A stretch of DNA of 49,409 nucleotides from Gammaproteobacteria bacterium (GTDB lineage Bacteria > Pseudomonadota > Gammaproteobacteria > Pseudomonadales > Litorivicinaceae), in assembly GCA_009922705.1 (NCBI GenBank), contig RFUY01000001.1:1-49409 (forward strand), read 5' to 3'. The notes below the pieces were generated by a model. The model did no database searches. It was not told where the DNA came from and saw nothing but the letters and a program-made list of their open reading frames with translations. Made by a program: the position numbers and the translations under genes. This document shows, one piece after another, positions 30,995 to 41,184 of this stretch (within the stretch, counting starts at the first letter, position 1; each line of letters starts with the position of its first letter).

Positions 30995-31873
30995 ATGTCA
31001 CGGTACTTGTTTGGCACCCTGATCATGGTGTGCGGCGTCCTTATCTTATCGCCAGACTCGGCGACGCTCCGCAAGATCGGTGGAGACCCCTGGGTCGTCT
31101 CATTTTGGCGGGGGATTGGGATCTGCTCGGTGATTTGGTTGCTCGCGCTACTCAGCGATGCGCGAGGTTGGTGGCAACAGTTGCGTCATCCAGGGTGGAC
31201 CGGTGCTGCGATCGTGGTGACCTTTGGGCTGTCACAAATTAGTTTCGTGCTGGCTGTGACCTATTTGGGCGCACCCACGGTTCTGGTGTTGGTGTCGACA
31301 ACGCCTCTGGCCAGTGCGGTGGCCAGTTGGCTGCTGTTTCGTGAGCGCACCGATGGGCCGCTCTGGTGCGCGATCATGGCCGGCGTGGTTGGTGCCAGTA
31401 TCGCTGGGAGTGGGCTGACGCAGGAGGTGCCTTGGATTGGTTGGCTCGGGGCGTTTGGGGTGCCCACACTGATGGGGGTGGGATTAAGTCTGACGCGCGC
31501 CTTTGCGGGTGAACGCATCTGGCCGTTGTATGGATTGTCCAGTGGCTTGGGGGCGTTAGCGATTGGTCTGGTGATTCCAGTGTTCGCAGTCCCGGCCGGT
31601 AGCGAGTGGTGGATGGTGTTCAACGCCTGTATCGTCGTGCCACTCTCGTTTGCGCTGATCACAATTGCGCCACGCTATTTACCAGCACCTGAGGTCGGTT
31701 TGTATTTGTTGCTGGAAACGCTGATCGGTCCCATTTTTGTCTGGTTCTTGGTGGGCGAATCGCCGACCACGCGTGATTTCCTGGGCGGCGCTATTTTACT
31801 GACGGCGCTGTCGAGTTTGTTTATTTATCGGATGCTACAAGAGCGGGCTCGCAAGGTGGGTGTCAGCCCATGA
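30995..31873 (+). CDS. DMT/EamA family transporter
   Basis: About 10 TM segments; LSPDS and PRYLPAPEVGL..LLET..GP; AGGAG SD. Confidence 0.88.
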   Translation: MSRYLFGTLIMVCGVLILSPDSATLRKIGGDPWVVSFWRGIGICSVIWLLALLSDARGWWQQLRHPGWTGAAIVVTFGLSQISFVLAVTYLGAPTVLVLVSTTPLASAVASWLLFRERTDGPLWCAIMAGVVGASIAGSGLTQEVPWIGWLGAFGVPTLMGVGLSLTRAFAGERIWPLYGLSSGLGALAIGLVIPVFAVPAGSEWWMVFNACIVVPLSFALITIAPRYLPAPEVGLYLLLETLIGPIFVWFLVGESPTTRDFLGGAILLTALSSLFIYRMLQERARKVGVSP

Positions 31874-32814
31874 TGTTGGTTGTGCTCACTGCGATTGTCC
31901 CGCTGGCCTGCGTCCTCTGTTTTGGGACCTGGATGAAAGCGCGCGGCATGGTACCGGACGAGTTTTGGCGAGGCTTGGAGTGGGTCAGCTACTGGGTACT
32001 GATGCCAGCATTATTGGTGTCAGTCATTATGCGGGCTCCCGATTTATCGGTCCCTTGGGCCGGCCTTTTGACTGCGCTCTACGGCACCTTAGCGCTCCTC
32101 TCTGGAGTTGTCTGGTTAGGGTGGAAACTTGGTCTCCGTCACCAAGGATTTCCGCGCCTGACGTCGCTCTACCAAGGGGTGATCCGGTTTAACACATTTA
32201 TTGCGTTGGCGCTGATGGCGGGCTTGGACCGTACCTTGCTGTCGCATGTGGCGATTGCCGCAGCCTGCTTAATTGTGGTGATCAATGTGCTGTGCGTCAG
32301 CGTTCTTTCGATGCAAGGGGCGACGTCCGGTGCACCTTCACGGATCACCCGTGAGCTGTCGCGCAATCCGCTGGTTCTGGGCTGTTTGCTAGGTGCCCTG
32401 TTACGGCAGATTGGGGTGTCGGGTGAGTCCGTTCTTGGTGAAAGCCTTCGTCTGTTAGGGCAAGCTGCATTGCCCATGGGAATTTTAGTGTTAGGGGCGG
32501 GTCTTCAGGCGGATGCCATGCGGCGCGCACTGCCAACGACGGGGTTGAGCCTCCTGTTGCAATTCATCATAAAACCGTTGATTGGCATGGCTTTGGCGTT
32601 GGCTGTCGGGCTTGATCCCACCTGGAGCTTGGTCGTTTTGATCTTGTTTTTGGTGCCCACAGCACCGTCTAGTTATATTTTGGCGAAGCAGTTGGGTGGT
32701 GACGCCCCTGCGATGGCGGCCATTGTGGCGAGCCAAACGGTCTTGGCAATGGTGACGATTCCGGTGACGTTATTGATCGCCGCGTCGTTGGGGGTGATTC
32801 GTCTTGGTCTCTAG
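31870..32814 (+). CDS. AEC (auxin efflux carrier) family transporter
   Basis: YWVLMPALL, QGVIRFNT, NPLVLG and PTAPSSYILAKQLGGDA. Confidence 0.9.
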   Translation: MMLVVLTAIVPLACVLCFGTWMKARGMVPDEFWRGLEWVSYWVLMPALLVSVIMRAPDLSVPWAGLLTALYGTLALLSGVVWLGWKLGLRHQGFPRLTSLYQGVIRFNTFIALALMAGLDRTLLSHVAIAAACLIVVINVLCVSVLSMQGATSGAPSRITRELSRNPLVLGCLLGALLRQIGVSGESVLGESLRLLGQAALPMGILVLGAGLQADAMRRALPTTGLSLLLQFIIKPLIGMALALAVGLDPTWSLVVLILFLVPTAPSSYILAKQLGGDAPAMAAIVASQTVLAMVTIPVTLLIAASLGVIRLGL

Positions 32815-34018
32815 AACGGCTGATTTGGTCATCGTGGGCGGAGGCATCGTTGGATTGACCTTGGCTGACACTTGGCGCCAACGTCACCCAACTGCCCGGA
32901 TCGTGATCTTCGAAAAGGAAGCCAGTTCCATCGCGCATGGGACGGGTCGTAACTCAGGGGTGCTGCATTCAGGCATTTATTACGGGTCTGGCAGCCTGCG
33001 CGCGCGTCTTTGTGTGGAAGGGCAGGCGCTGATGAAGGCCTATGCAGAAACCCATGGGCTCTGGCTCGATCCCTGCGGAAAATTGTTGGTGCCAACCTCT
33101 GAGTCCGCCCTCCAGACATTACCGCTCCTTCTCGAGCGTGGTCAGGCGAACGGTGTGACTGTCGAGCGTGTCGATCGACAGACCATGCTGGCGTTAGAGC
33201 CTCGCGTGGAAACCCGCTATGGGGAAGCGCTTTGGATCGCATCAACCTCGGTCGTGAATCCGAAGGAGATCGCTGTCCATCTTGCGACACGGTTGGCGAA
33301 TGCGGGGGTCTCGTTACGGTATTCGACACCCGTGCTGGGTATGTCTGGGCGACAGGTCACCACGCCTGAGGGGGTGATTGAAGCGGGTGTAGTTGTGAAT
33401 GCCGCCGGATTGTATGCAGATCGCGTGGCAACAGCGGCTGGATTACAGCTTCTCTATAGTTTTCAGCCATTTAAAGGGAAATATTGGATGCACCGCGACC
33501 CGGCATTCCGCTTGCGTCGATTGGTGTACCCGATTCCAGATCTGAATCTCCCATTTCTTGGTGTACACACTGCCCATAATGCACAGGGGCAGGTATTTTT
33601 TGGCCCCAGTTCGACACCAATTCTTGGACGCGAAAACTACCGTGGTCTGGCTGGGATTGAGTTGGGTGAGGGGGTGCGGTTAGCGCTGGGTCTCGCCAAA
33701 AAACTGCTGTTGAACACAAATGGGCTGCGACAGCTTGCCTGGCGGGAGGCAAAACTCCTGACCAAGGCGGGAGTCGCGTCGGAGTTAGCCGGATTGATTC
33801 GTGGTGTGGCGCCGTCGGACTTTTCCGAGAGTCTTGCAAAAGTTGGGATTCGGTCGCAAATCTTTGATCCAAAGGCGAAGCAATTGGTGAATGATTTTGT
33901 CATTTTGGAACAGGACGGGGCAGTGCATATACTGAACGCAATCAGTCCCGCATTCACGGCGAGTTTTGCGTTTGCGCGATATGTAAGTGATCAATTTTTA
34001 ACAACGACTCTGCGATAA
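32804..34018 (+). CDS. lhgO: L-2-hydroxyglutarate oxidase family flavoprotein
   Basis: GGGIVG, H.TGRNSGVLHSGIYY, NAAGLYAD, LVYP.PD...PFLGVH, GIRSQ and NA.SPA.T; TTG start overlaps the AEC gene. Confidence 0.88.
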   Translation: MVSRTADLVIVGGGIVGLTLADTWRQRHPTARIVIFEKEASSIAHGTGRNSGVLHSGIYYGSGSLRARLCVEGQALMKAYAETHGLWLDPCGKLLVPTSESALQTLPLLLERGQANGVTVERVDRQTMLALEPRVETRYGEALWIASTSVVNPKEIAVHLATRLANAGVSLRYSTPVLGMSGRQVTTPEGVIEAGVVVNAAGLYADRVATAAGLQLLYSFQPFKGKYWMHRDPAFRLRRLVYPIPDLNLPFLGVHTAHNAQGQVFFGPSSTPILGRENYRGLAGIELGEGVRLALGLAKKLLLNTNGLRQLAWREAKLLTKAGVASELAGLIRGVAPSDFSESLAKVGIRSQIFDPKAKQLVNDFVILEQDGAVHILNAISPAFTASFAFARYVSDQFLTTTLR

Positions 34019-34034
34019 AGAGAAGGACATACGC

Positions 34035-34823
34035 ATGGATTTTGGATTGAAAGGTCGGGTTGCCTTGGTACTCGGTGCCTCGCAGGGCTTAGGGGCCGCA
34101 TCGGCACAGGCACTGGCCGCTGAGGGTGCGCACGTTGTGGTGGCCGCGCGCCGATTGGATGCATTGCAGACTGTGGTGGGTGATATTGTTGCCGCTGGCG
34201 GATCTGCCGAAGCGCTTCAATGCGATTTGGGCGACGCAGCCTCTCGAAAAGTGGTCATGGACTGGATTGCTCAGACGCCCCGCCTCGATATCCTTGTGGC
34301 GAATTCAGGGGGCCCAAAGCCTGGCCCCGCCCCGGGGATCTCAAGCGACACATGGCGGAGCGAATTCGAGTCCATGGTTGTCGGTCTGATTGAACTGATC
34401 GATGCGGCTGTGGTGCCAATGCGTGCAGCAGGATTTGGACGCATTCTTGCAATCGGCTCTTCAGGGATGTCGATCCCAATTCCGCATCTTGCGGTCTCAA
34501 ACACGCTCCGATCGGCGGTGGGTGGTTACATGAAAAGCCTTGCCGAACAGGTAGCATCTGACGGAATCACCTGTAATATGGTCTTACCGGGTCGGATTGA
34601 GACGGCTCGGACACAACAAATTGATGCGTTAACTGCGCAAAAACTGGGAGTGAGTGTCGCGGAGGTGCATGCCAAGTCCGCCGCCTCGATCCCAGCTGGG
34701 CGTTATGGACAACCCCAGGAATTGGCGGCGGTGGTTGCCTTTTTGGCGAGTGAGCAAGCGGCTTACGTCACCGGTAGCCACGTGCGTGTCGATGGAGGAT
34801 TTATCCGAAATATCCATACCTAG
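34035..34823 (+). CDS. SDR family oxidoreductase (atypical active site, SN..R type)
   Basis: GASQGLG, NSGGP, LAVSNTLR in place of YxxxK, PGRI.T.R and VDGG. Confidence 0.9.
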   Translation: MDFGLKGRVALVLGASQGLGAASAQALAAEGAHVVVAARRLDALQTVVGDIVAAGGSAEALQCDLGDAASRKVVMDWIAQTPRLDILVANSGGPKPGPAPGISSDTWRSEFESMVVGLIELIDAAVVPMRAAGFGRILAIGSSGMSIPIPHLAVSNTLRSAVGGYMKSLAEQVASDGITCNMVLPGRIETARTQQIDALTAQKLGVSVAEVHAKSAASIPAGRYGQPQELAAVVAFLASEQAAYVTGSHVRVDGGFIRNIHT

Positions 34824-34871
34824 CCAAGGACGGCAGTTATCCGAAAAGAAAAACTTGAGGAGAATAAGAAT

Positions 34872-35888
34872 ATGAAACGTCGTTCCGTACTGCTGGCTTC
34901 TGCCAGCATTTTCACTGCATCGTTTGCGCTGTCTACAGCCGCGGTTGGTGCTGACCAGGATTACATCTTGGCGACCGCGTCAACGGGCGGAACCTATTAT
35001 CCAGTTGGCGTTGCGATCTCGACCCTTGCCAAGGTGAAGCTTCAACCCAAACACAAATTCAGTGTCTCTGCGATCAGCTCAGCGGGCTCTGGAGAAAACA
35101 TCCGCTTACTGCGCGAAAATGAAGCGCAATTTGCGATTCTGCAGGGACTGTTTGGTTACTACGCAGCCTCTGGAACCGGCCCATTAGCGAATGACGGGCC
35201 ACAGCCCTACATTCGGTCGGTGTCGATGTTGTGGCAGAACGTTGAACATTTTTTGGTCTCCGCTGACTTGGCGAAAACCGGGACGGCTGATGACCTGCTT
35301 GGGTTGAAAGGCAAAACCGTTGCAATGGGTGCGAAGAATTCGGGAACCATTGGCTCTAATGGGCATTTATTGGGTGGATTAGGCGTCGATCTCGATAAGG
35401 ACGTGGAACATTACTATGCGGGCTATGGTCCATCAGCCGATGCCTTGCAAAATGGGCAGGTCGCGGGTGCAGGAATCGCAGCAGGGGTTCCTGCCAGTGC
35501 TGTCACCAAATTGATGGCCTCGGGCGCTGATAAGGTGAGACTCCTGACCTTTACGGCAGATCAAATCACGCGTGCGGACGATGGTGCAAACCTGTGGACA
35601 GCGTTTGAGATCCCTGCAGGCACGTATCCGAATCAAACGCAGGCGGTCACCACCTTGGCACAGCCAAACTTTCTCGCGACTCATGAAAACATCAGTGAAG
35701 AGCATGTGTATTTGCTGACCAAAGCCATCTACGAGAACCTTCCGTTTTTGAACGCAATTCACCCTGCGACGAAAGCCATGGCGATCGAAAAGGCGATTTC
35801 AGGATTACCGGCTCCATTGCATCCCGGTGCGGCGAAGTTCTATCAGGAGCAGGGGATTAATATCCCAACTCGATTGATCGCCAAGTAG
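34872..35888 (+). CDS. TAXI family TRAP transporter solute-binding protein
   Basis: Signal peptide, ATASTGGTYYPVG, SAGSGEN, SGT and PLHPGA.KFY. Confidence 0.94.
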   Translation: MKRRSVLLASASIFTASFALSTAAVGADQDYILATASTGGTYYPVGVAISTLAKVKLQPKHKFSVSAISSAGSGENIRLLRENEAQFAILQGLFGYYAASGTGPLANDGPQPYIRSVSMLWQNVEHFLVSADLAKTGTADDLLGLKGKTVAMGAKNSGTIGSNGHLLGGLGVDLDKDVEHYYAGYGPSADALQNGQVAGAGIAAGVPASAVTKLMASGADKVRLLTFTADQITRADDGANLWTAFEIPAGTYPNQTQAVTTLAQPNFLATHENISEEHVYLLTKAIYENLPFLNAIHPATKAMAIEKAISGLPAPLHPGAAKFYQEQGINIPTRLIAK

Positions 35889-35889
35889 C

Positions 35890-37989
35890 ATGCAGTCAAA
35901 CCAAGCATCATCGATTCGATGGATCGATGATGCCTTTACGGCGAGGCCTGCACCGTCTTGGGTGCGGGTCACTGCATTCGCCCTGGCGCTCGGGATGGCG
36001 TTATTCCATCTGGCCGTCGCCTGGGTGCCCTTTGTTTCTGATTTTGAACGGAATACTCTGCATTTTGCTGGCTTTGCATTGCTTTGTGCGATGGTCTTCC
36101 CAGCACGCATTGGAGCACTGTCGACGCCTTCACTGATTGCGGATCTGTTATTCGCCGCTGTCGTGGCTGGCGCAGCGGTCTATCTTGCGCAGGCAGAAGA
36201 TGCCATCTATGCCCGCGGTGTTCGCTTATCCACCTTGGATTGGTGTGCGGGCGTGATCGTCATTTTGGGTGCGATCGAATACGCGCGCAGGGTCTCTGGG
36301 TGGATTATCCCGTGCTTGATCCTATTGGCACTGGCGTACGTCGCATTTCTAGGCCAATACGTGCCTGGCATTTTTCGGTTTGGTGGGCTTTCCCTTGAGT
36401 CTGTGTTGTTTCGGTCCGTCTATGGCGATGATGCACTGTTTGGAACAATCGCAAGTATTTCATCAACCTATGTCTTTTTATTTATCATTTTTGGCGCCTT
36501 TTTGACCCAGTCAGGGGCGGGCGACTTTGTGATCAATATTGCTCGGATTGTCGCGGGTCATATTCGCGGTGGTCCTGGCATTGTGGCGGTGATTGCGTCA
36601 GGCTTGACCGGAACAATCAACGGGTCGGCTGTTGCAAATACAGCATCCACCGGCGTCATCACGATCCCAATGATGAAAAAGGCGGGTTTTGATCCTAAGT
36701 TCGCGGCCGCTGTCGAAGCCGCCGCCTCCACTGGTGGGCAACTGATGCCACCGATCATGGGTGCAGGGGCCTTTGTGATGGCGTCCTACACGCAAATTCC
36801 GTACGAGCAGATTGCGATTGCTGCCTTTGTGCCGGCGCTGCTGTATTTCGCATCTGTGGCGATCTTTGTGCGGATCGAAGCAATGAAATTGGCAATCGTA
36901 CAGTTTGACGACACCGAGGCACCAACGCTGCGGGAGACCTTTGTGCAGGGTGGTCTCACCTTCGTGCTGCCGATTGGCGTGGTTGTGTGGATGCTGATCG
37001 ATGGCTTTACCCCGACCTATTCAGCGGTGGCTGGGATTGCGACAGTGGTGGCCTCAAGCTGGTTGGGTCCACGTCGCATGGGTGTGGTTGAGGTGATCAA
37101 TGCTCTGGCCATTGGTGCACGAAATATGGTGTTGACCGCGGTCTTGCTGTGCGCTGTTGGATTGATGATCAATGTGATTGCCACAGCCGGGATCGGCAAT
37201 ACGTTTTCGATGATGATCATGGATTGGTCTGACGGCAATCTCCTCATTGCGATGGTGCTTGTCGCGGTTGCCTCCCTCGTGCTGGGCATGGGATTGCCTG
37301 TCACCGCAGCGTACATTGTGCTTGCGACCTTAAGTGCGCCAGCCTTAGCCGGGCTCATTGCGAATGAGGCTCTGATTTCGACACTGGTGTTCGGTGTTTC
37401 AGAGGAGTTGGCGGCAGTCGTCTCTTTTGTGCTGCCAACCTATGAGCCGGGTCTCGACCGAGACGCTGTTCGCGCCCTCATTCAGGCAGCACCCGTCGAG
37501 ACGCTGGGTGTGTTGCGGGACACCTTATTGTCGCCTGAGAGTCTTGCAGCCGCCTTGCTCGCCGGTCATATGATTGTGTTTTGGCTCAGTCAGGATTCGA
37601 ACGTCACTCCGCCGGTCTGTTTGGCGGCCTTTACCGGTGCTGCGATCGCAGGATCCTCGCCAATGCGGACTGGATTGACGAGTTGGAAGATCGCCAAAGG
37701 GCTCTACATCGTGCCACTGCTCTTTGCGTATACGCCGATTCTCACCGCGCCCTGGGCGCAAGTTTTACAGATTGGCCTGTGCGCGTTATGCGGTATCTAC
37801 GGTCTGGCTGCAGCCCTGCAGGGTGCCACTGAACGTCCGATTGGGATTGGCTTACGTGTCGCACTCGGTCTCTTTGGGGGTGCGGCCTTATGGCCAGAGG
37901 CGCCCGTGGCTTGGCTTGGCGCTGCGGGAGTCATACTTATGACGGCGATCTCGGTGATGACCGCGCGTTGGCGTCATCAGAAAGCCTGA
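35890..37989 (+). CDS. TRAP transporter fused 4TM/12TM permease (TAXI type)
   Basis: GSAVAN, EAAASTGGQLMPPIMGAGAFVMA, LGMGLPVTAAY and S.VTPPV. Confidence 0.94.
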   Translation: MQSNQASSIRWIDDAFTARPAPSWVRVTAFALALGMALFHLAVAWVPFVSDFERNTLHFAGFALLCAMVFPARIGALSTPSLIADLLFAAVVAGAAVYLAQAEDAIYARGVRLSTLDWCAGVIVILGAIEYARRVSGWIIPCLILLALAYVAFLGQYVPGIFRFGGLSLESVLFRSVYGDDALFGTIASISSTYVFLFIIFGAFLTQSGAGDFVINIARIVAGHIRGGPGIVAVIASGLTGTINGSAVANTASTGVITIPMMKKAGFDPKFAAAVEAAASTGGQLMPPIMGAGAFVMASYTQIPYEQIAIAAFVPALLYFASVAIFVRIEAMKLAIVQFDDTEAPTLRETFVQGGLTFVLPIGVVVWMLIDGFTPTYSAVAGIATVVASSWLGPRRMGVVEVINALAIGARNMVLTAVLLCAVGLMINVIATAGIGNTFSMMIMDWSDGNLLIAMVLVAVASLVLGMGLPVTAAYIVLATLSAPALAGLIANEALISTLVFGVSEELAAVVSFVLPTYEPGLDRDAVRALIQAAPVETLGVLRDTLLSPESLAAALLAGHMIVFWLSQDSNVTPPVCLAAFTGAAIAGSSPMRTGLTSWKIAKGLYIVPLLFAYTPILTAPWAQVLQIGLCALCGIYGLAAALQGATERPIGIGLRVALGLFGGAALWPEAPVAWLGAAGVILMTAISVMTARWRHQKA

Positions 37990-38019
37990 TACACTCGGAT
38001 TTTTTTACAGGAGACTCTC

Positions 38020-38082
38020 ATGCGTTTCGTCATGCTGTTGTGCGTAGCCCTATCTCTGTCTGGATGTATTTCGTTGTTCTAA
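38020..38082 (+). CDS. Minimal lipoprotein/lipopeptide precursor (20 aa, MRFVMLLCVALSLSGCISLF)
   Basis: AGGAG SD 6 nt before ATG; basic n-region, hydrophobic h-region, lipobox LSGC; TAA lies 3 nt before the DUF3422 ATG. Not in the ORF track. Confidence 0.6.
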   Translation: MRFVMLLCVALSLSGCISLF

Positions 38083-38085
38083 TGT

Positions 38086-39288
38086 ATGTCTGAGTTTGAT
38101 CCACATCGCGTCCGCTTGGGTGCGAACAAAGAGCTGCATGCGCGTCCGTTTCCAGAGCTGCCTGCGGCTGTTCGTTTAGTCCATCTCTGTGTTCGCTCGT
38201 CTCCAAAGACCTGGCCGACAGTGCGTGGCTGGATCCAGCGGCGCATTACGGATCTGCCTGACGAGTTTTCTGGTCGTTGGGTCCGTGATGCGATGGATGG
38301 TTGGTGCCGCGTCGAGTTGCACACAGAATTTGTGGCGATCACGCTCGTCGTTCCGGATGGGCTCCAGTTTTCGGAAGTCGCCGATGCGCAATGGCTTGGG
38401 CAAGTACCCAGCGATATCTTTGTCTTGGCCCGTTTAACCTCGGAAGTTGGGCAGGCGGCGTTTGACCCTCAATTTGAAGCCGTGAGTGAGTTTCTGGATG
38501 GCTCCGTTTTGGCGGCCTCGAACTTTAGTCCGGACACAGCAGGGTTCTCCAATTGGCAGGTCCGTTTTGTCGACGACCCGGGGCCTGAGGCCTCTGGCCG
38601 TCTCTTGCAGTTAATCTTAGAAATCGAAACCTATCGGACCTTGGCGGTGGTGGGTATTGATAAAGTGCGTCAAGCACACCCTGTGCTGCAATCTGTGGCA
38701 ACCGCCTTACCGAAGAGCATTGCCAAGGCGTTGGATCATGCGCAAATGTTGCAGATGCTGGAAACCTTGACGGCAGAGGCATCTCGATTGCATGAAATTT
38801 GGGAGGAACTTGCCTGGCGTATCGGGGCAAACCAGGCATATCACAATCTCGTTTTTCAGCGCTTGGCGGACTTGGCTGATCGTCCTTCGGGGGGCGCAGT
38901 GAGCCTGTCTCAGTTTTTACGACGGCGCCTAACGCCCGCGATCGCGACAATGGAAACGGTTATGCGGCGTCGTGATGAGCTTGCGCGTCAGGTTGAGGAC
39001 CGCGCAGATCTTCTGCGAACTCAATTGCAGTTAAATCTGCAAAGTCAGACCCGTGACCTGTTGGCGAGTCTAGAACGCAGCGCAGTCACGCAAATTCGAC
39101 TGCAGACGGCCGTCGAAGGGTTGTCCACAGTTGCGATCGCGTATTACGCCTTAAACTTACTCACCCCAATGATCGAGCCCTGGGTCCCTCACGATCAATT
39201 AGCATGGGTCAAAGCAGGTCTCGCACCAGTGGTCGTTGGATCGGTGTGGTGGGTCTTATCGCGAATTCGGAACCGCGTCAGTCACTAG
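38086..39288 (+). CDS. DUF3422 family membrane-anchored protein
   Basis: ELHARPF, E.HTEF, GRLLQ..LEIETYR.LA, FL.RRL.PA, LRLQ..VEGLS..AI.YY and two C-terminal TMs. Confidence 0.88.
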
Positions 39289-39660
39289 TCCCAGCGCCTG
39301 CGCCTCGGACTCACTGATCACTCGATTGTGCTGGTCGACGAACACCACTTGTGGCGCGTGCTCTCGCGCTTCATCCGGTGTGAATTGCGCAAAGGTCGCG
39401 AGAATTAAAATGTCGCCAACCGCGACCTGACGTGCCGCGGATCCGTTCACAGAGATGATTCCTGACCCACGAGGTGCTTCGATGGCATAGGTGATAAAGC
39501 GTGCACCATTGGTGACATTCCACACGTGAAGCTGTTCGTACGGAGACATGCCGGCAATATCGAGCAAGTCCTGATCGATTGCACAAGAGCCAATGTAGTG
39601 CAATTCAGCGGCGGTCGTGGTGACACGATGTAGTTTGCTCGCAAGCAGCGTCCGTTGCAT
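39256..39660 (-). CDS. panD: Aspartate 1-decarboxylase (pyruvoyl)
   Basis: MQRTLL.SKLHR, cleavage site YIG-SC, NGARF.TY and NGSAAR; GGAGG SD before ATG 39660. Confidence 0.96.
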
Positions 39661-39682
39661 AGTTCCTCCCGAGTCAGGGCGC

Positions 39683-39710
39683 ATCATAATGGACTTCGGG
39701 GATGGAACAA
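39683..39710 (-). promoter_or_regulatory. Putative sigma70 promoter of panD
   Basis: TTGTTC-16 nt-TATGAT followed by GC-rich GCGCCC. Confidence 0.45.
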
Positions 39711-39742
39711 AGCACGTCTTTCGTGCCTCTTGTGTCGCGTTT

Positions 39743-40597
39743 TTAGCCGTCTGTTGGGGAGTCGACCAGCAGGGCAGAGACATATCCCGGCAGACCAAAG
39801 GCGCCATGGTGGGCAGCCGGGGTGTAATAGTTCAGCGGGCCAAGCGTGCCGGACCTAGATCGCAGCGACTCGATCGAAGGTAGGCTGAATGGGGCATGAC
39901 TTGCGAAGCCCATCGCCATGGGACCCCCGACGTAGGTTGGGACCGTCGTCAGGTAGCAGGACCGCGTTTCGAACAGTCCGCGCCAACGCTGGTAAGTATT
40001 TGTGAGCTCTTGTCCCTGAAGAAAGGGCACTCCATTTTGCGTAATGAGAATGCCAGAGGGCGTGAGCAGTCGTGCACAGTGCCGGTAGAAGTCTGTTTCA
40101 AAGAGAACCTCAGCCGGTCCGATTGGATCTGTTGAGTCAGCGATAATGACATCAAATTGATCCTGGCAATCGTGGACAAAGGCGGCGCCATCATTGATGG
40201 TTAGGGTCAGACGGGGGTCTTCAAAGCTACCGGCCGAGTGATTGGGAAAAAACTGTGTACACAGCTCCACCACACTTGCGTCGATTTCCACCTGGGTGAT
40301 GTGCTCGACAGTTTGATGTTTGCAGACTTCGCGGAGAATGCCGCCATCACCACCGCCGATAATTAACACGCGTTGAGGGTGTGGGTGAGTCAGGAGTGGG
40401 ACATGCACCATCATCTCATGGTAGATGAACTCATCACGACTCGTGGTTTGCGTCACGCCATCGAGCGCCATGACACGGCCGAAAAGTTCGTTTTCAAAGA
40501 TAATTAGGTGCTGATGGTCCGTTTGCTGCTCAAATAACACCCGCGTTTGGCCAAAATTTTGGCCCCACGCGGGGTAGAGCGATTCCTGAAAACGCAT
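39743..40597 (-). CDS. speE: Spermidine synthase (polyamine aminopropyltransferase)
   Basis: [31 protein letters not shown] and PTY.GG; ATG overlaps the speD stop (TGATG). Confidence 0.96.
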
Positions 40598-41040
40598 CAA
40601 AGGACTTTGCCGCGACGCTCTTCAACCACTTCGACACGGCCTGGACGGAAATATCGACTGAGAATCTCAATCGCCCGATGGGGATTGGAATCACCGCACA
40701 TGAATACGTCGAAGGCCGCGTAATTTTTTTCAGGCCAGGTGTGCACCGAAATGTGTGATTCGGCGAGCACAGCGACGCCACTGATTCCGCCATTTGGTGT
40801 GAAGTGATGGAGATGAATGTGCAACAGGGTGGCTGCGCATTCTTCAACGCAGGTCCGCATTGCGGTTTCCATCCGTTCGAGGCAGTCGAGGTCACGTGCT
40901 TCCCAAAGATCGATGATCAAATGGGTGCCGGCGAAGACTTCGCCATCTCGGTGAATGAAATGATCAAGCGATTGATCATTCTGGGCTAATTGGTCGTGTT
41001 GTGGCCAGGCTTGTGTGGCGACAGCGGTCAACGTGCTCAA
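40597..41040 (-). CDS. speD: S-adenosylmethionine decarboxylase proenzyme (class 1B, pyruvoyl)
   Basis: GTHLIIDLW, HFTP.GG.SG, LAE-SH cleavage site, HTWPE and DVFMCG. Start uncertain: TTG 41040 preferred (AGGGGG upstream); ATG 41106 is an alternative. Confidence 0.95.
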   Translation of the reverse strand: MSTLTAVATQAWPQHDQLAQNDQSLDHFIHRDGEVFAGTHLIIDLWEARDLDCLERMETAMRTCVEECAATLLHIHLHHFTPNGGISGVAVLAESHISVHTWPEKNYAAFDVFMCGDSNPHRAIEILSRYFRPGRVEVVEERRGKVL

Positions 41041-41156
41041 TTCAGGTGATACCCCCTGGATCCGGTCTGTGTCAGTCAATTGCGATGACACCCGGTGGGT
41101 CGGCATCGCGCTAAATAACGAGCATAAATCCTCTGTAAGAAGCTCAGATGGCGCGA

Positions 41157-41184
41157 AGTGTAGAGACTTTTGTCGTGATGACAA
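41157..41184 (-). promoter_or_regulatory. Putative sigma70 promoter of the speD leader
   Basis: TTGTCA (41184-41179)-16 nt-TACACT (41162-41157), then a GC-rich discriminator TCGCGCC; AT-rich UP-like region upstream. Confidence 0.6.

What the first reader, a model, noticed from the sequence alone, without database searches (positions are those of the whole stretch)
38009..38086. 20-codon lipoprotein gene that would yield the lipopentapeptide CISLF
Seen: a well-spaced AGGAG SD, then MRFVMLLCVALSLSG-CISLF-stop, i.e. a complete type II signal peptide with lipobox LSGC and only four residues after Cys. It fills the TRAP permease-DUF3422 gap, and DUF3422 has no evident SD and starts 3 nt after the stop. 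Known: Lgt/LspA/Lnt lipidate and cleave at the lipobox; a non-Asp +2 residue favours outer-membrane sorting in E. coli. Inference: a ribosomally encoded minimal lipopeptide (membrane modulator, signal or transporter accessory), a coupling leader for DUF3422, or the stump of a deleted lipoprotein.
Basis: partly seen in the sequence, partly recalled or inferred. Interest (0 to 1): 0.75.

Follow-up and report, generated by a model that had tools for sequence, protein, structure and literature searches.

The report
Five-residue bacterial lipoprotein gene family
A tiny unannotated gene, conserved in several distant groups of bacteria, encodes an export signal followed by only five amino acids; it is predicted to yield a lipid-anchored five-residue peptide that likely works by binding a cell-envelope protein.

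Summary
The 20-codon ORF is at 38020-38082 and is a conserved gene, not a stump. Upstream of DUF3422, 22 of 24 same-genus copies are intact, with M1, R2, C16, S18, F20 and the stop position invariant. The tail is under purifying selection (pN/pS 0.16), and the signal core varies yet has 0 of 264 residues charged.

The same signal peptide + C[IV]S[LI]F-stop occurs beside other genes in Enterobacterales and Alphaproteobacteria (30 of 95 pattern hits). In Enterobacterales it pairs with a second mini-lipoprotein gene (mature CLSIGSHI type, 33 of 35 loci). Their promoter carries a palindrome also seen before DUF3313-pqiABC. It was not found in Pfam, NCBIfam, four RefSeq plasmid gene tables or the papers searched.

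Best reading (0.45): Lgt/LspA/Lnt make a triacyl pentapeptide that likely docks on an envelope protein, as LptM's 9-residue core does. In this genus it probably also couples translation of the SD-less DUF3422. Translation, lipidation and target are all untested.

The parts
37987..37995 (+). Extended -10-like element TGATACACT, predicted promoter of the small ORF-DUF3422 unit; overlaps the TRAP permease stop codon
   Evidence: Same element in G009, G008 and G042; a TGGTTTAAT-type element 28-41 nt upstream of the ATG in 17 further copies. The generic sigma-70 scan did not list it. One RNA-library contig starts at 38022, with no cover of the permease (weak hint).
38009..38013 (+). Shine-Dalgarno AGGAG of the small ORF
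   Evidence: anti-SD duplex at or below -5 kcal/mol in 24 of 24 genus copies.
38020..38082 (+). 20-codon prolipoprotein gene MRFVMLLCVALSLSGCISLF-stop
   Evidence: intact in 22 of 24 genus copies with 21 distinct DNA and 19 distinct protein sequences.
38020..38064 (+). Predicted type II signal peptide, residues 1-15 (R2, uncharged hydrophobic core)
   Evidence: Core residues 3-14 are 29% identical pairwise but 0 of 264 are charged. SignalP was not available.
38056..38067 (+). Lipobox L-S-G-C (Cys16 is the predicted lipid attachment site)
   Evidence: C16 in 22 of 22 intact copies, G15 in 21 of 22, L/I/M at 13 in 22 of 22.
38065..38079 (+). Predicted mature pentapeptide C-I-S-L-F
   Evidence: C[IV]S[LI]F in 22 of 22 intact copies; pN/pS 0.18 over C16-F20; Ser kept through both TCN and AGT codons.
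38086..39288 (+). DUF3422 membrane protein gene, SD-less, likely co-transcribed and translationally coupled in this genus only
   Evidence: Pfam PF11902; 3-13 nt after the small-ORF stop in the intact copies; weak CorA/Mrs2-like fold resemblance.

Best explanation
This is a conserved gene whose 20-residue product is predicted to be lipidated and cleaved by the housekeeping Lgt/LspA/Lnt pathway into a triacylated five-residue peptide (Cys-Ile-Ser-Leu-Phe) that likely reaches the outer membrane and likely acts in trans by docking on a cell-envelope protein. Shown: the ORF, its SD, coding-type selection concentrated on the lipobox and the five mature residues, a fixed stop, occurrence beside different genes in distant lineages, and lgt, lspA, lnt and lolA in the genome. 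Inferred: translation; post-translational delivery to Sec (the chain is shorter than the ribosome exit tunnel, recalled as about 30-40 residues); lipidation; Lol sorting (no Asp at +2); and binding of the acyl chains plus the short backbone and terminal Phe to a membrane-protein groove, as the 9-residue core of LptM does on LptD. The target is unknown. Envelope lipid handling is the likeliest area, because the Enterobacterales copies share a promoter palindrome with a DUF3313-pqiABC operon. In this genus the ORF likely has a second, cis role: handing ribosomes to the SD-less DUF3422 gene.
For: Selection: G15-F20 pN/pS 0.16, shifted frames 1.6 and 3.6; stops TAA 15, TGA 5, TAG 2 at the same codon; mature part 82% identical against 29% for the signal core. 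Spread: 30 of 95 exact hits of the tail pattern carry ATG, a basic or Asn start and an uncharged hydrophobic core; all 30 have proteobacterial titles. Independent ascertainment: copies reached through the second gene or the TetR also read CVSLF. Action in trans: neighbours differ by lineage; DUF3422 was not found in 5 of 5 other carrier genomes; in L179, L180 and L182 the next gene is convergent. Machinery present. Precedent: an LptM stop mutant with nine mature residues stays functional (10.1101/2025.01.03.631273, passages); a 27-residue protein is delivered post-translationally by SRP (PMC7549839, abstract).
Against: No translation, lipidation, localisation or binding data. The RNA support is one contig at depth 5 from one study and could be DNA. 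Outside the genus the first copies were picked by a pattern that demands this tail, so cross-class identity is partly built in, and five residues cannot prove homology. The gene is patchy: no clear copy among 400 sampled Proteobacteria (one doubtful, L215), 5 of 151 in the family of G701, 0 of 6 sister-genus DUF3422 loci. It decays in one subclade (G041 Cys>Tyr with stop lost, G018 frameshift, G006 Gly15Asp), so it is dispensable. PqiA was not found in G000, G1051 or G1053, so Pqi is not a universal partner. A Rahnella TetR-DUF3313-pqi cluster has no such ORF within 8 kb.
Confidence: 0.45

Rival explanations
1. The product is lipidated but acts as a bulk membrane component or as transport cargo: a cheap carrier of three acyl chains (through Lol, or as cargo of an MCE/ABC-2 system) that tunes outer-membrane lipid balance without a specific protein site.
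For: The mature peptide has no charged side chain. The Enterobacterales promoter palindrome also lies before DUF3313-pqiAA'BC in G701 and G702. TetR, DUF3313 or Pqi genes lie within 24 of 31 loci of 2.5 kb or more. An ABC-2 permease (PRK15066-like) lies upstream in 7 of 8 intact copies of one alphaproteobacterial family.
Against: Invariant Ser and terminal Phe with a fixed length is stricter than a bulk role should need. PqiA was not found in three carrier genomes.
Confidence: 0.17
2. The ORF matters mainly in cis, as a translated leader that couples or regulates the downstream gene; the peptide is secondary.
For: SD in 24 of 24 small-ORF starts against 2 of 24 DUF3422 starts, spacer 3-13 nt. 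In the two decayed copies the altered frame still ends at the DUF3422 start (G041 stop just inside, G018 ATGA overlap).
Against: Coupling does not need a lipobox or an invariant tail. Copies elsewhere have a convergent neighbour or only a second mini-gene downstream. DUF3422 lacks this leader in 33 of 33 loci from other families and 6 of 6 sister-genus loci.
Confidence: 0.12
3. The 20-mer is not processed and works as a single-pass small membrane protein, of the YohP or MgtS kind (MgtS recalled), on an inner-membrane transporter, for example the CorA-like DUF3422.
For: It is 20 hydrophobic residues long, several copies have extra Cys in the core, and DUF3422 shows weak Mrs2/CorA similarity (Foldseek E 1e-4, TM about 0.2; Z 11.4, within helical-bundle noise). 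Such short precursors may be poor Sec/Lgt substrates.
Against: The lipobox with Cys at a fixed distance from the stop is conserved while the core drifts and the N-terminal length varies from 20 to 29 residues between lineages. DUF3422 was not found in other carriers.
Confidence: 0.12
4. The lipopeptide is a released signal or antagonist (shed in vesicles, sensed by a regulator or protease, or acting on neighbours), with the Enterobacterales pair acting like ecnA/ecnB.
For: A tandem two-lipoprotein operon in Enterobacterales with solo copies elsewhere parallels ecnAB (PMC7296081, passages). The end S-x-F-COOH resembles a class I PDZ ligand (recalled motif).
Against: No receptor, immunity or export gene is shared among loci. 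The second peptide's end varies (extra residues in L134 and L290, Gly in L307). No entericidin family match.
Confidence: 0.1
5. Stump of a deleted or nonsense-broken lipoprotein, a read-through fusion with DUF3422, or a chance ORF.
For: In G000 the ORF is in frame with DUF3422. An earlier scan note judged a similar orphan ORF in another phylum to be a remnant.
Against: Same stop position with three different stop codons and three frames relative to DUF3422 in 22 copies, a double stop in G024, and purifying selection up to the stop. The same end occurs in other classes.
Confidence: 0.03

Closest known systems
LptM (YifL; PF13627, NF047847)
   Same: Small lipoprotein whose working part is a lipid-anchored short peptide ending in Phe. 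A nine-residue truncation is functional and binds LptD near its lateral gate (10.1101/2025.01.03.631273 and 10.1101/2025.04.10.648201, passages).
   Different: Natural LptM has a longer mature chain and another motif. The query scores 13.2 bits against a cut-off of 27.7, over the signal region only. The genome has a separate LptM-like gene on C341 (24.7 bits, just under the Pfam cut-off; over it in 3 relatives).
Entericidin EcnA/EcnB small lipoproteins
   Same: Small lipoproteins, tandem pair in enterobacteria and solo copies in other Proteobacteria (PMC7296081, passages).
   Different: The mature EcnB-type protein Atu8019 has 32 residues, against 5 and about 8 here; no Pfam or NCBIfam entericidin match.
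DAG-RiPPs (lipidated RiPPs made through the lipoprotein pathway)
   Same: Ribosomal peptide with a lipoprotein signal, matured by the housekeeping pathway into a triacylated peptide (PMC13056109, abstract and passages).
   Different: Those precursors were mined at 50-160 residues beside MNIO enzymes. Here the precursor has 20-29 residues, no modifying enzyme is adjacent, and PF05114 was not found in 5 of 5 carrier genomes.
TetR-pqiAA'B cluster of Acidovorax avenae; AefR-type regulators
   Same: A TetR represses a horizontally acquired pqi cluster (PMC4204640, abstract and part 1 of Results). The Enterobacterales neighbour carries PF14246.
   Different: The word 'lipoprotein' does not occur in that paper's main text. 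The window's own locus has no TetR or pqi genes, and binding of the TetR to the palindrome is inferred, not shown.

Membership tests
Bacterial lipoprotein precursor (Sec/SPII substrate) | Basic N-region and uncharged hydrophobic core | tested here: met
   R2 in 22 of 22; 0 of 264 core residues charged.
Bacterial lipoprotein precursor (Sec/SPII substrate) | Lipobox [LVI][ASTVI][GAS]C (recalled rule) with Cys near position 15-30 | tested here: met
   LSGC at 13-16; Cys invariant, Gly 21 of 22. Three copies have Gly at 14 and one has Asp at 15.
Bacterial lipoprotein precursor (Sec/SPII substrate) | Host encodes Lgt, LspA, Lnt | tested here: met
   All over cut-off in G000, plus LolA.
Bacterial lipoprotein precursor (Sec/SPII substrate) | Actual diacylglyceryl transfer, cleavage and N-acylation | not testable with these tools
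   Needs labelling or LC-MS.
LptM family | PF13627/NF047847 motif over cut-off | tested here: not met
   13.2 against 27.7 bits; no Pfam hit at E up to 1; a separate LptM-like gene exists.
LptM family | Binds LptD | not testable with these tools
   The peptide is below the 30-residue size the complex tool asks for; no job sent.
Entericidin EcnA/B | Entericidin profile match and mature chain of about 20-30 residues | tested here: not met
   No such family among hits for 13 peptides; mature length 5.
DAG-RiPP | Lipoprotein signal on a ribosomal peptide precursor | tested here: met
DAG-RiPP | Associated MNIO or other tailoring enzyme | tested here: not met
   None among 10 proteins of the locus; PF05114 not found in 5 of 5 carrier genomes, some incomplete.
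CorA/Mrs2 channels (for the neighbour DUF3422) | CorA-like fold | tested here: inconclusive
   Model pLDDT 92; top Foldseek hits Mrs2 at E about 1e-4, TM about 0.2; top VIA hit CorA Z 11.4 over 111 residues, tied with unrelated bundles.

The most novel reading that the evidence does not exclude
Proteobacteria use a hidden class of 'nano-lipoprotein' genes to make defined triacylated penta- and octapeptides with nothing but Lgt/LspA/Lnt. These are ribosomal lipopeptides below the reach of gene callers, conserved letter for letter across Alpha- and Gammaproteobacteria, and they act as built-in ligands of an outer-membrane assembly or lipid-transport machine.
Probability: 0.4. Interest if true: 0.92.

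Novelty: new variant of a known kind. Interest (0 to 1): 0.82.

Why it matters
If processed as predicted, this is a natural lipoprotein of five residues, shorter than the nine-residue engineered LptM and than any natural lipoprotein seen in the papers searched here. It would set the lower size limit for Sec, Lgt, LspA, Lnt and Lol substrates in a living cell. It would also show that housekeeping enzymes alone can make a defined lipopeptide, and reveal a gene class that annotation misses (absent from four RefSeq plasmid gene tables and from the 15-billion-protein collection). Its target would be a small, conserved binding site in the Gram-negative envelope. The question is directly testable, because copies sit on plasmids of culturable Pantoea vagans C9-1 and Erwinia billingiae Eb661.

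Tried and rejected
Read-through fusion with DUF3422: rejected, because the frame varies and G024 has a double stop.

TRAP accessory: rejected, because the gene stays with DUF3422 when other genes lie upstream (G012, G024).

General DUF3422 leader: not seen upstream of 33 DUF3422 loci from 32 genomes of other families or 6 sister-genus loci.

Structured RNA: Rfam gave only two weak hits far below gathering score. Other reading frames show no purifying selection and carry stops.

Family and collection look-ups were blank: Pfam and NCBIfam below cut-off, PDB sequences, exact look-up of 11 peptides among 15 billion proteins, E. coli genomes. Viral contigs gave 5 pattern hits, none with a signal peptide. 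The family of G1052 (3 genomes) gave no further copy. The family of G1051 gave 2 of 18 genomes with a copy.

Papers: 'DUF3422' gave 0 and the five peptide strings gave 0. Searches listed no paper describing these genes (listings only, apart from the papers cited). The AefR operator sequence could not be read, because it is in a figure of the supplement, so the palindrome could not be compared with it. bioRxiv supplements are closed, and small-proteome tables there could list these ORFs.

The single-sequence fold of DUF3422 was poor and was redone with an alignment. The ESM Atlas returned only DUF3422 clusters. No complex prediction was sent, because the peptide is under 30 residues.

A beta-signal mimic idea was considered and judged weak, since Ser sits where OMP beta-signals have an aromatic residue (recalled consensus). 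The PDZ-ligand idea is kept only as a lead. RNA runs X2-X4 do not cover the small ORF, and none of the four covers the permease part; that is no evidence either way.

Full report
Observation. The sequence is as described. AGGAG (38009-38013) precedes ATG 38020 by 6 nt, and the ORF 38020-38082 reads MRFVMLLCVALSLSGCISLF-stop. It lies between a fused TRAP permease gene (35890-37989) and DUF3422 (38086-39288; PF11902), 3 nt before the DUF3422 ATG and in frame with it. A strict scan found it to be the only short-tailed one among 9 SD + lipobox starts in the genome and found none in 2 Mb of simulated DNA. A looser scan gave 3 short candidates of 15. The genome encodes Lgt, LspA, Lnt and LolA.

Conservation in the genus. 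DUF3422 is in 23 of 29 other genomes of the genus and 6 of 7 of the sister genus. I examined the upstream DNA of 24 copies from 23 genomes including G000; G001 was left out because its contig has no upstream DNA. Twenty-two copies are intact 20-codon ORFs (two also have an extra Met in front), with 21 distinct DNA and 19 distinct protein sequences. M1, R2, C16, S18, F20 and the stop are invariant; position 17 is I or V and position 19 is I or L. The stop is TAA 15, TGA 5 and TAG 2 times, and Ser18 is kept through TCN and AGT codons. Pairwise pN/pS is 0.16 over G15-F20, against 1.6 and 3.6 in the shifted frames (kin are not independent, so this is descriptive). The signal core is 29% identical but 0 of 264 residues are charged, while the mature part is 82% identical. 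The frame relative to DUF3422 is 0, 1 and 2 in 15, 4 and 5 copies, which excludes a fusion or a stump. Against this, two copies have decayed (G041: Cys>Tyr and stop lost; G018: frameshift, with DUF3422 also broken) and G006 has Asp at 15. G023, G006 and G041 form one well-supported clade (G018 and the partial G022 copy were left out of the tree). Named records with the same gene junction are titled Litoricola sp., Litorivicinaceae, HIMB30 and LSUCC0096, which places the genus among marine Gammaproteobacteria.

Expression signals. All 24 small-ORF starts have an SD (duplex at or below -5 kcal/mol with a recalled anti-SD motif), against 2 of 24 DUF3422 starts. An extended -10-like element lies upstream in 21 of 24 copies (TGGTTTAAT type in 17, TGATACACT in 4). 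One contig from a metatranscriptome spans 38022-38540, from the small ORF into DUF3422, at depth 5, and the permease part is uncovered in all 4 runs laid (4 of 5 found, one study). That is a weak hint only.

It is not a DUF3422 leader in general. No such ORF was found before 6 sister-genus or 33 other-family DUF3422 loci. A scan of 185,579 species genomes for the tail pattern gave 95 loci. Thirty carry a full signal peptide: 10 with the DUF3422 junction, 13 Enterobacterales (Erwinia, Brenneria, Pantoea, Lonsdalea, Sodalis and one MAG), 6 with alphaproteobacterial titles and 1 other Pseudomonadota. The other 65 have none. DUF3422 was not found in 5 of 5 of these other carrier genomes tested. 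In one alphaproteobacterial family 17 of 46 genomes matched a looser pattern. Eight hold an intact copy and one has a broken start, with an ABC-2 permease upstream in 7 of the 8 (its likeness to YadH is recalled from the PRK15066 model). Two single copies follow outer-membrane beta-barrel genes. In L179, L180 and L182 the next gene is convergent. A census over all fetched loci gave 65 distinct DNA versions: CVSLF 31, CVSIF 14, CISLF 12, CISIF 7 and one doubtful CMSLF. The family is patchy: no clear copy in 400 sampled Proteobacteria and 5 of 151 in the family of G701.

The Enterobacterales operon. There the gene (always CVSLF) is followed by a second mini-lipoprotein gene with a mature product of the CLSIGSHI type. 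Of 35 loci examined, 34 have gene 1, 33 have both genes intact by pattern, and 31 have a GTAC-centred palindrome over a sigma-70-like promoter. The two exceptions each carry a Cys>Tyr change in one gene. Metagenome loci found through gene 2 and plasmid loci found through the TetR region also read CVSLF, so this part is not an artefact of the first pattern. An AefR-type TetR (PF00440 + PF14246) lies in 20 of 31 loci of 2.5 kb or more, DUF3313 or Pqi genes in 21, and either in 24. The same palindrome precedes a DUF3313-pqiA-pqiB-pqiC operon in G701 and G702 and on a Klebsiella plasmid. A TetR represses a mobile pqiAA'B cluster in Acidovorax (PMC4204640, abstract and part 1 of Results). Co-regulation is inferred, not shown. 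Against a universal link, PqiA was not found in G000, G1051 or G1053, and a Rahnella TetR-pqi cluster has no such ORF within 8 kb. The genes are absent from the gene tables of four plasmids that carry them (that table is stated to be incomplete).

How it most likely works. Coding-type selection concentrated on the lipobox, the five mature residues and the stop, with a freely drifting signal core, is what a processed lipoprotein with a sequence-specific mature part should show. Different neighbours in each lineage mean the product acts in trans. By established pathway knowledge, Lgt adds diacylglycerol to Cys16, LspA cleaves, and Lnt adds a third chain. With no Asp at +2 the product would go to the outer membrane through Lol (rule as stated in PMC13056109, passage). 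Two doubts about feasibility have precedents. A 27-residue protein is targeted post-translationally by SRP (PMC7549839, abstract). An LptM cut to nine mature residues still works and binds LptD near its lateral gate (10.1101/2025.01.03.631273, passages; 10.1101/2025.04.10.648201, passages). I therefore favour a lipid-anchored peptide ligand of an envelope protein (0.45). The rivals are a bulk lipid-like or cargo role (0.17), a mainly cis leader (0.12), an unprocessed membrane peptide (0.12), a released signal (0.10) and a stump or chance ORF (0.03). I put the chance that the gene is translated at about 0.95 and that it is lipidated at about 0.8; these are judgements. Coupling to DUF3422 is a likely side role in this genus, since even the decayed frames end at its start. 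DUF3422 itself resembles CorA/Mrs2 only weakly.

Comparison and novelty. It meets the sequence definition of a lipoprotein precursor. It fails membership of LptM (a separate LptM-like gene is on C341), of entericidin and of DAG-RiPPs (no MNIO), although it may work like LptM. No Pfam or NCBIfam model reaches cut-off, none of 11 peptides is in the 15-billion-protein collection, and no paper in the library holds the peptide strings or 'DUF3422'. That library lacks most subscription papers, and bioRxiv supplements were closed. Other papers opened: PMC11915855 (term search and supplement passages), PMC11131202 (one passage), PMC7296081 (passages) and 10.1101/2025.04.02.646747 (abstract; a 57-residue lipoprotein). 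Verdict: a real, unannotated, cross-class family of minimal lipoprotein genes, a new variant of a known kind, interest 0.82. All biochemistry is still to be shown.

Noticed in passing
L114:1565-1642:+ and 32 other Enterobacterales loci: A second unannotated mini-lipoprotein gene (26-27 codons, mature CLSIGSHI type) directly after the CVSLF gene; both mature peptides start Cys-hydrophobic-Ser/Ala-hydrophobic and may be paralogues.
   Followed up: yes
L242:9726, L242:13526-13540, L244:7855-7870, L307:8747 and 13510, L308:5090 and 7980: A GTAC-centred palindrome over the promoters of the mini-gene pair, of DUF3313-pqiABC and of an AefR-type tetR: a candidate operator of an undescribed regulon in plant-associated Enterobacterales, partly plasmid-borne.
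   Followed up: partly
L083 (G041), L202, L299 gene 2: Three separate copies have lost the lipobox Cys by the same change to Tyr while the rest of the ORF is readable; decay or sequencing error cannot be told apart.
   Followed up: partly
window 38086-39288: DUF3422 has an alpha/beta N-terminal part, long helices and two C-terminal hydrophobic helices; its top structural hits are Mrs2/CorA Mg channels, though weak. No paper in the library mentions DUF3422.
   Followed up: partly
L021, L025, L026 (G018:C58): DUF3422 is broken by stops and frameshifts in G018, together with the small ORF.
   Followed up: no
L015 and L024 (G022): G022 holds two divergent small ORF-DUF3422 copies on short contigs, possibly contamination of the bin.
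   Followed up: no
L301:9993-10253, L302:9806-10048, L303:8990-9292: RefSeq calls a 'hypothetical protein' on the opposite strand next to or over the mini-gene pair, but not the mini-genes themselves.
   Followed up: no
window 31870-37989: Conserved upstream run in most of the genus: AEC-type transporter, FAD oxidoreductase, short-chain dehydrogenase, TAXI-type TRAP binding protein and fused permease; probably uptake and oxidation of an organic acid, separate from the small ORF unit.
   Followed up: no
window 39256-41184 (- strand): speD-speE-panD-like genes converge on DUF3422, with the panD-like ORF end overlapping its last 33 bases.
   Followed up: no
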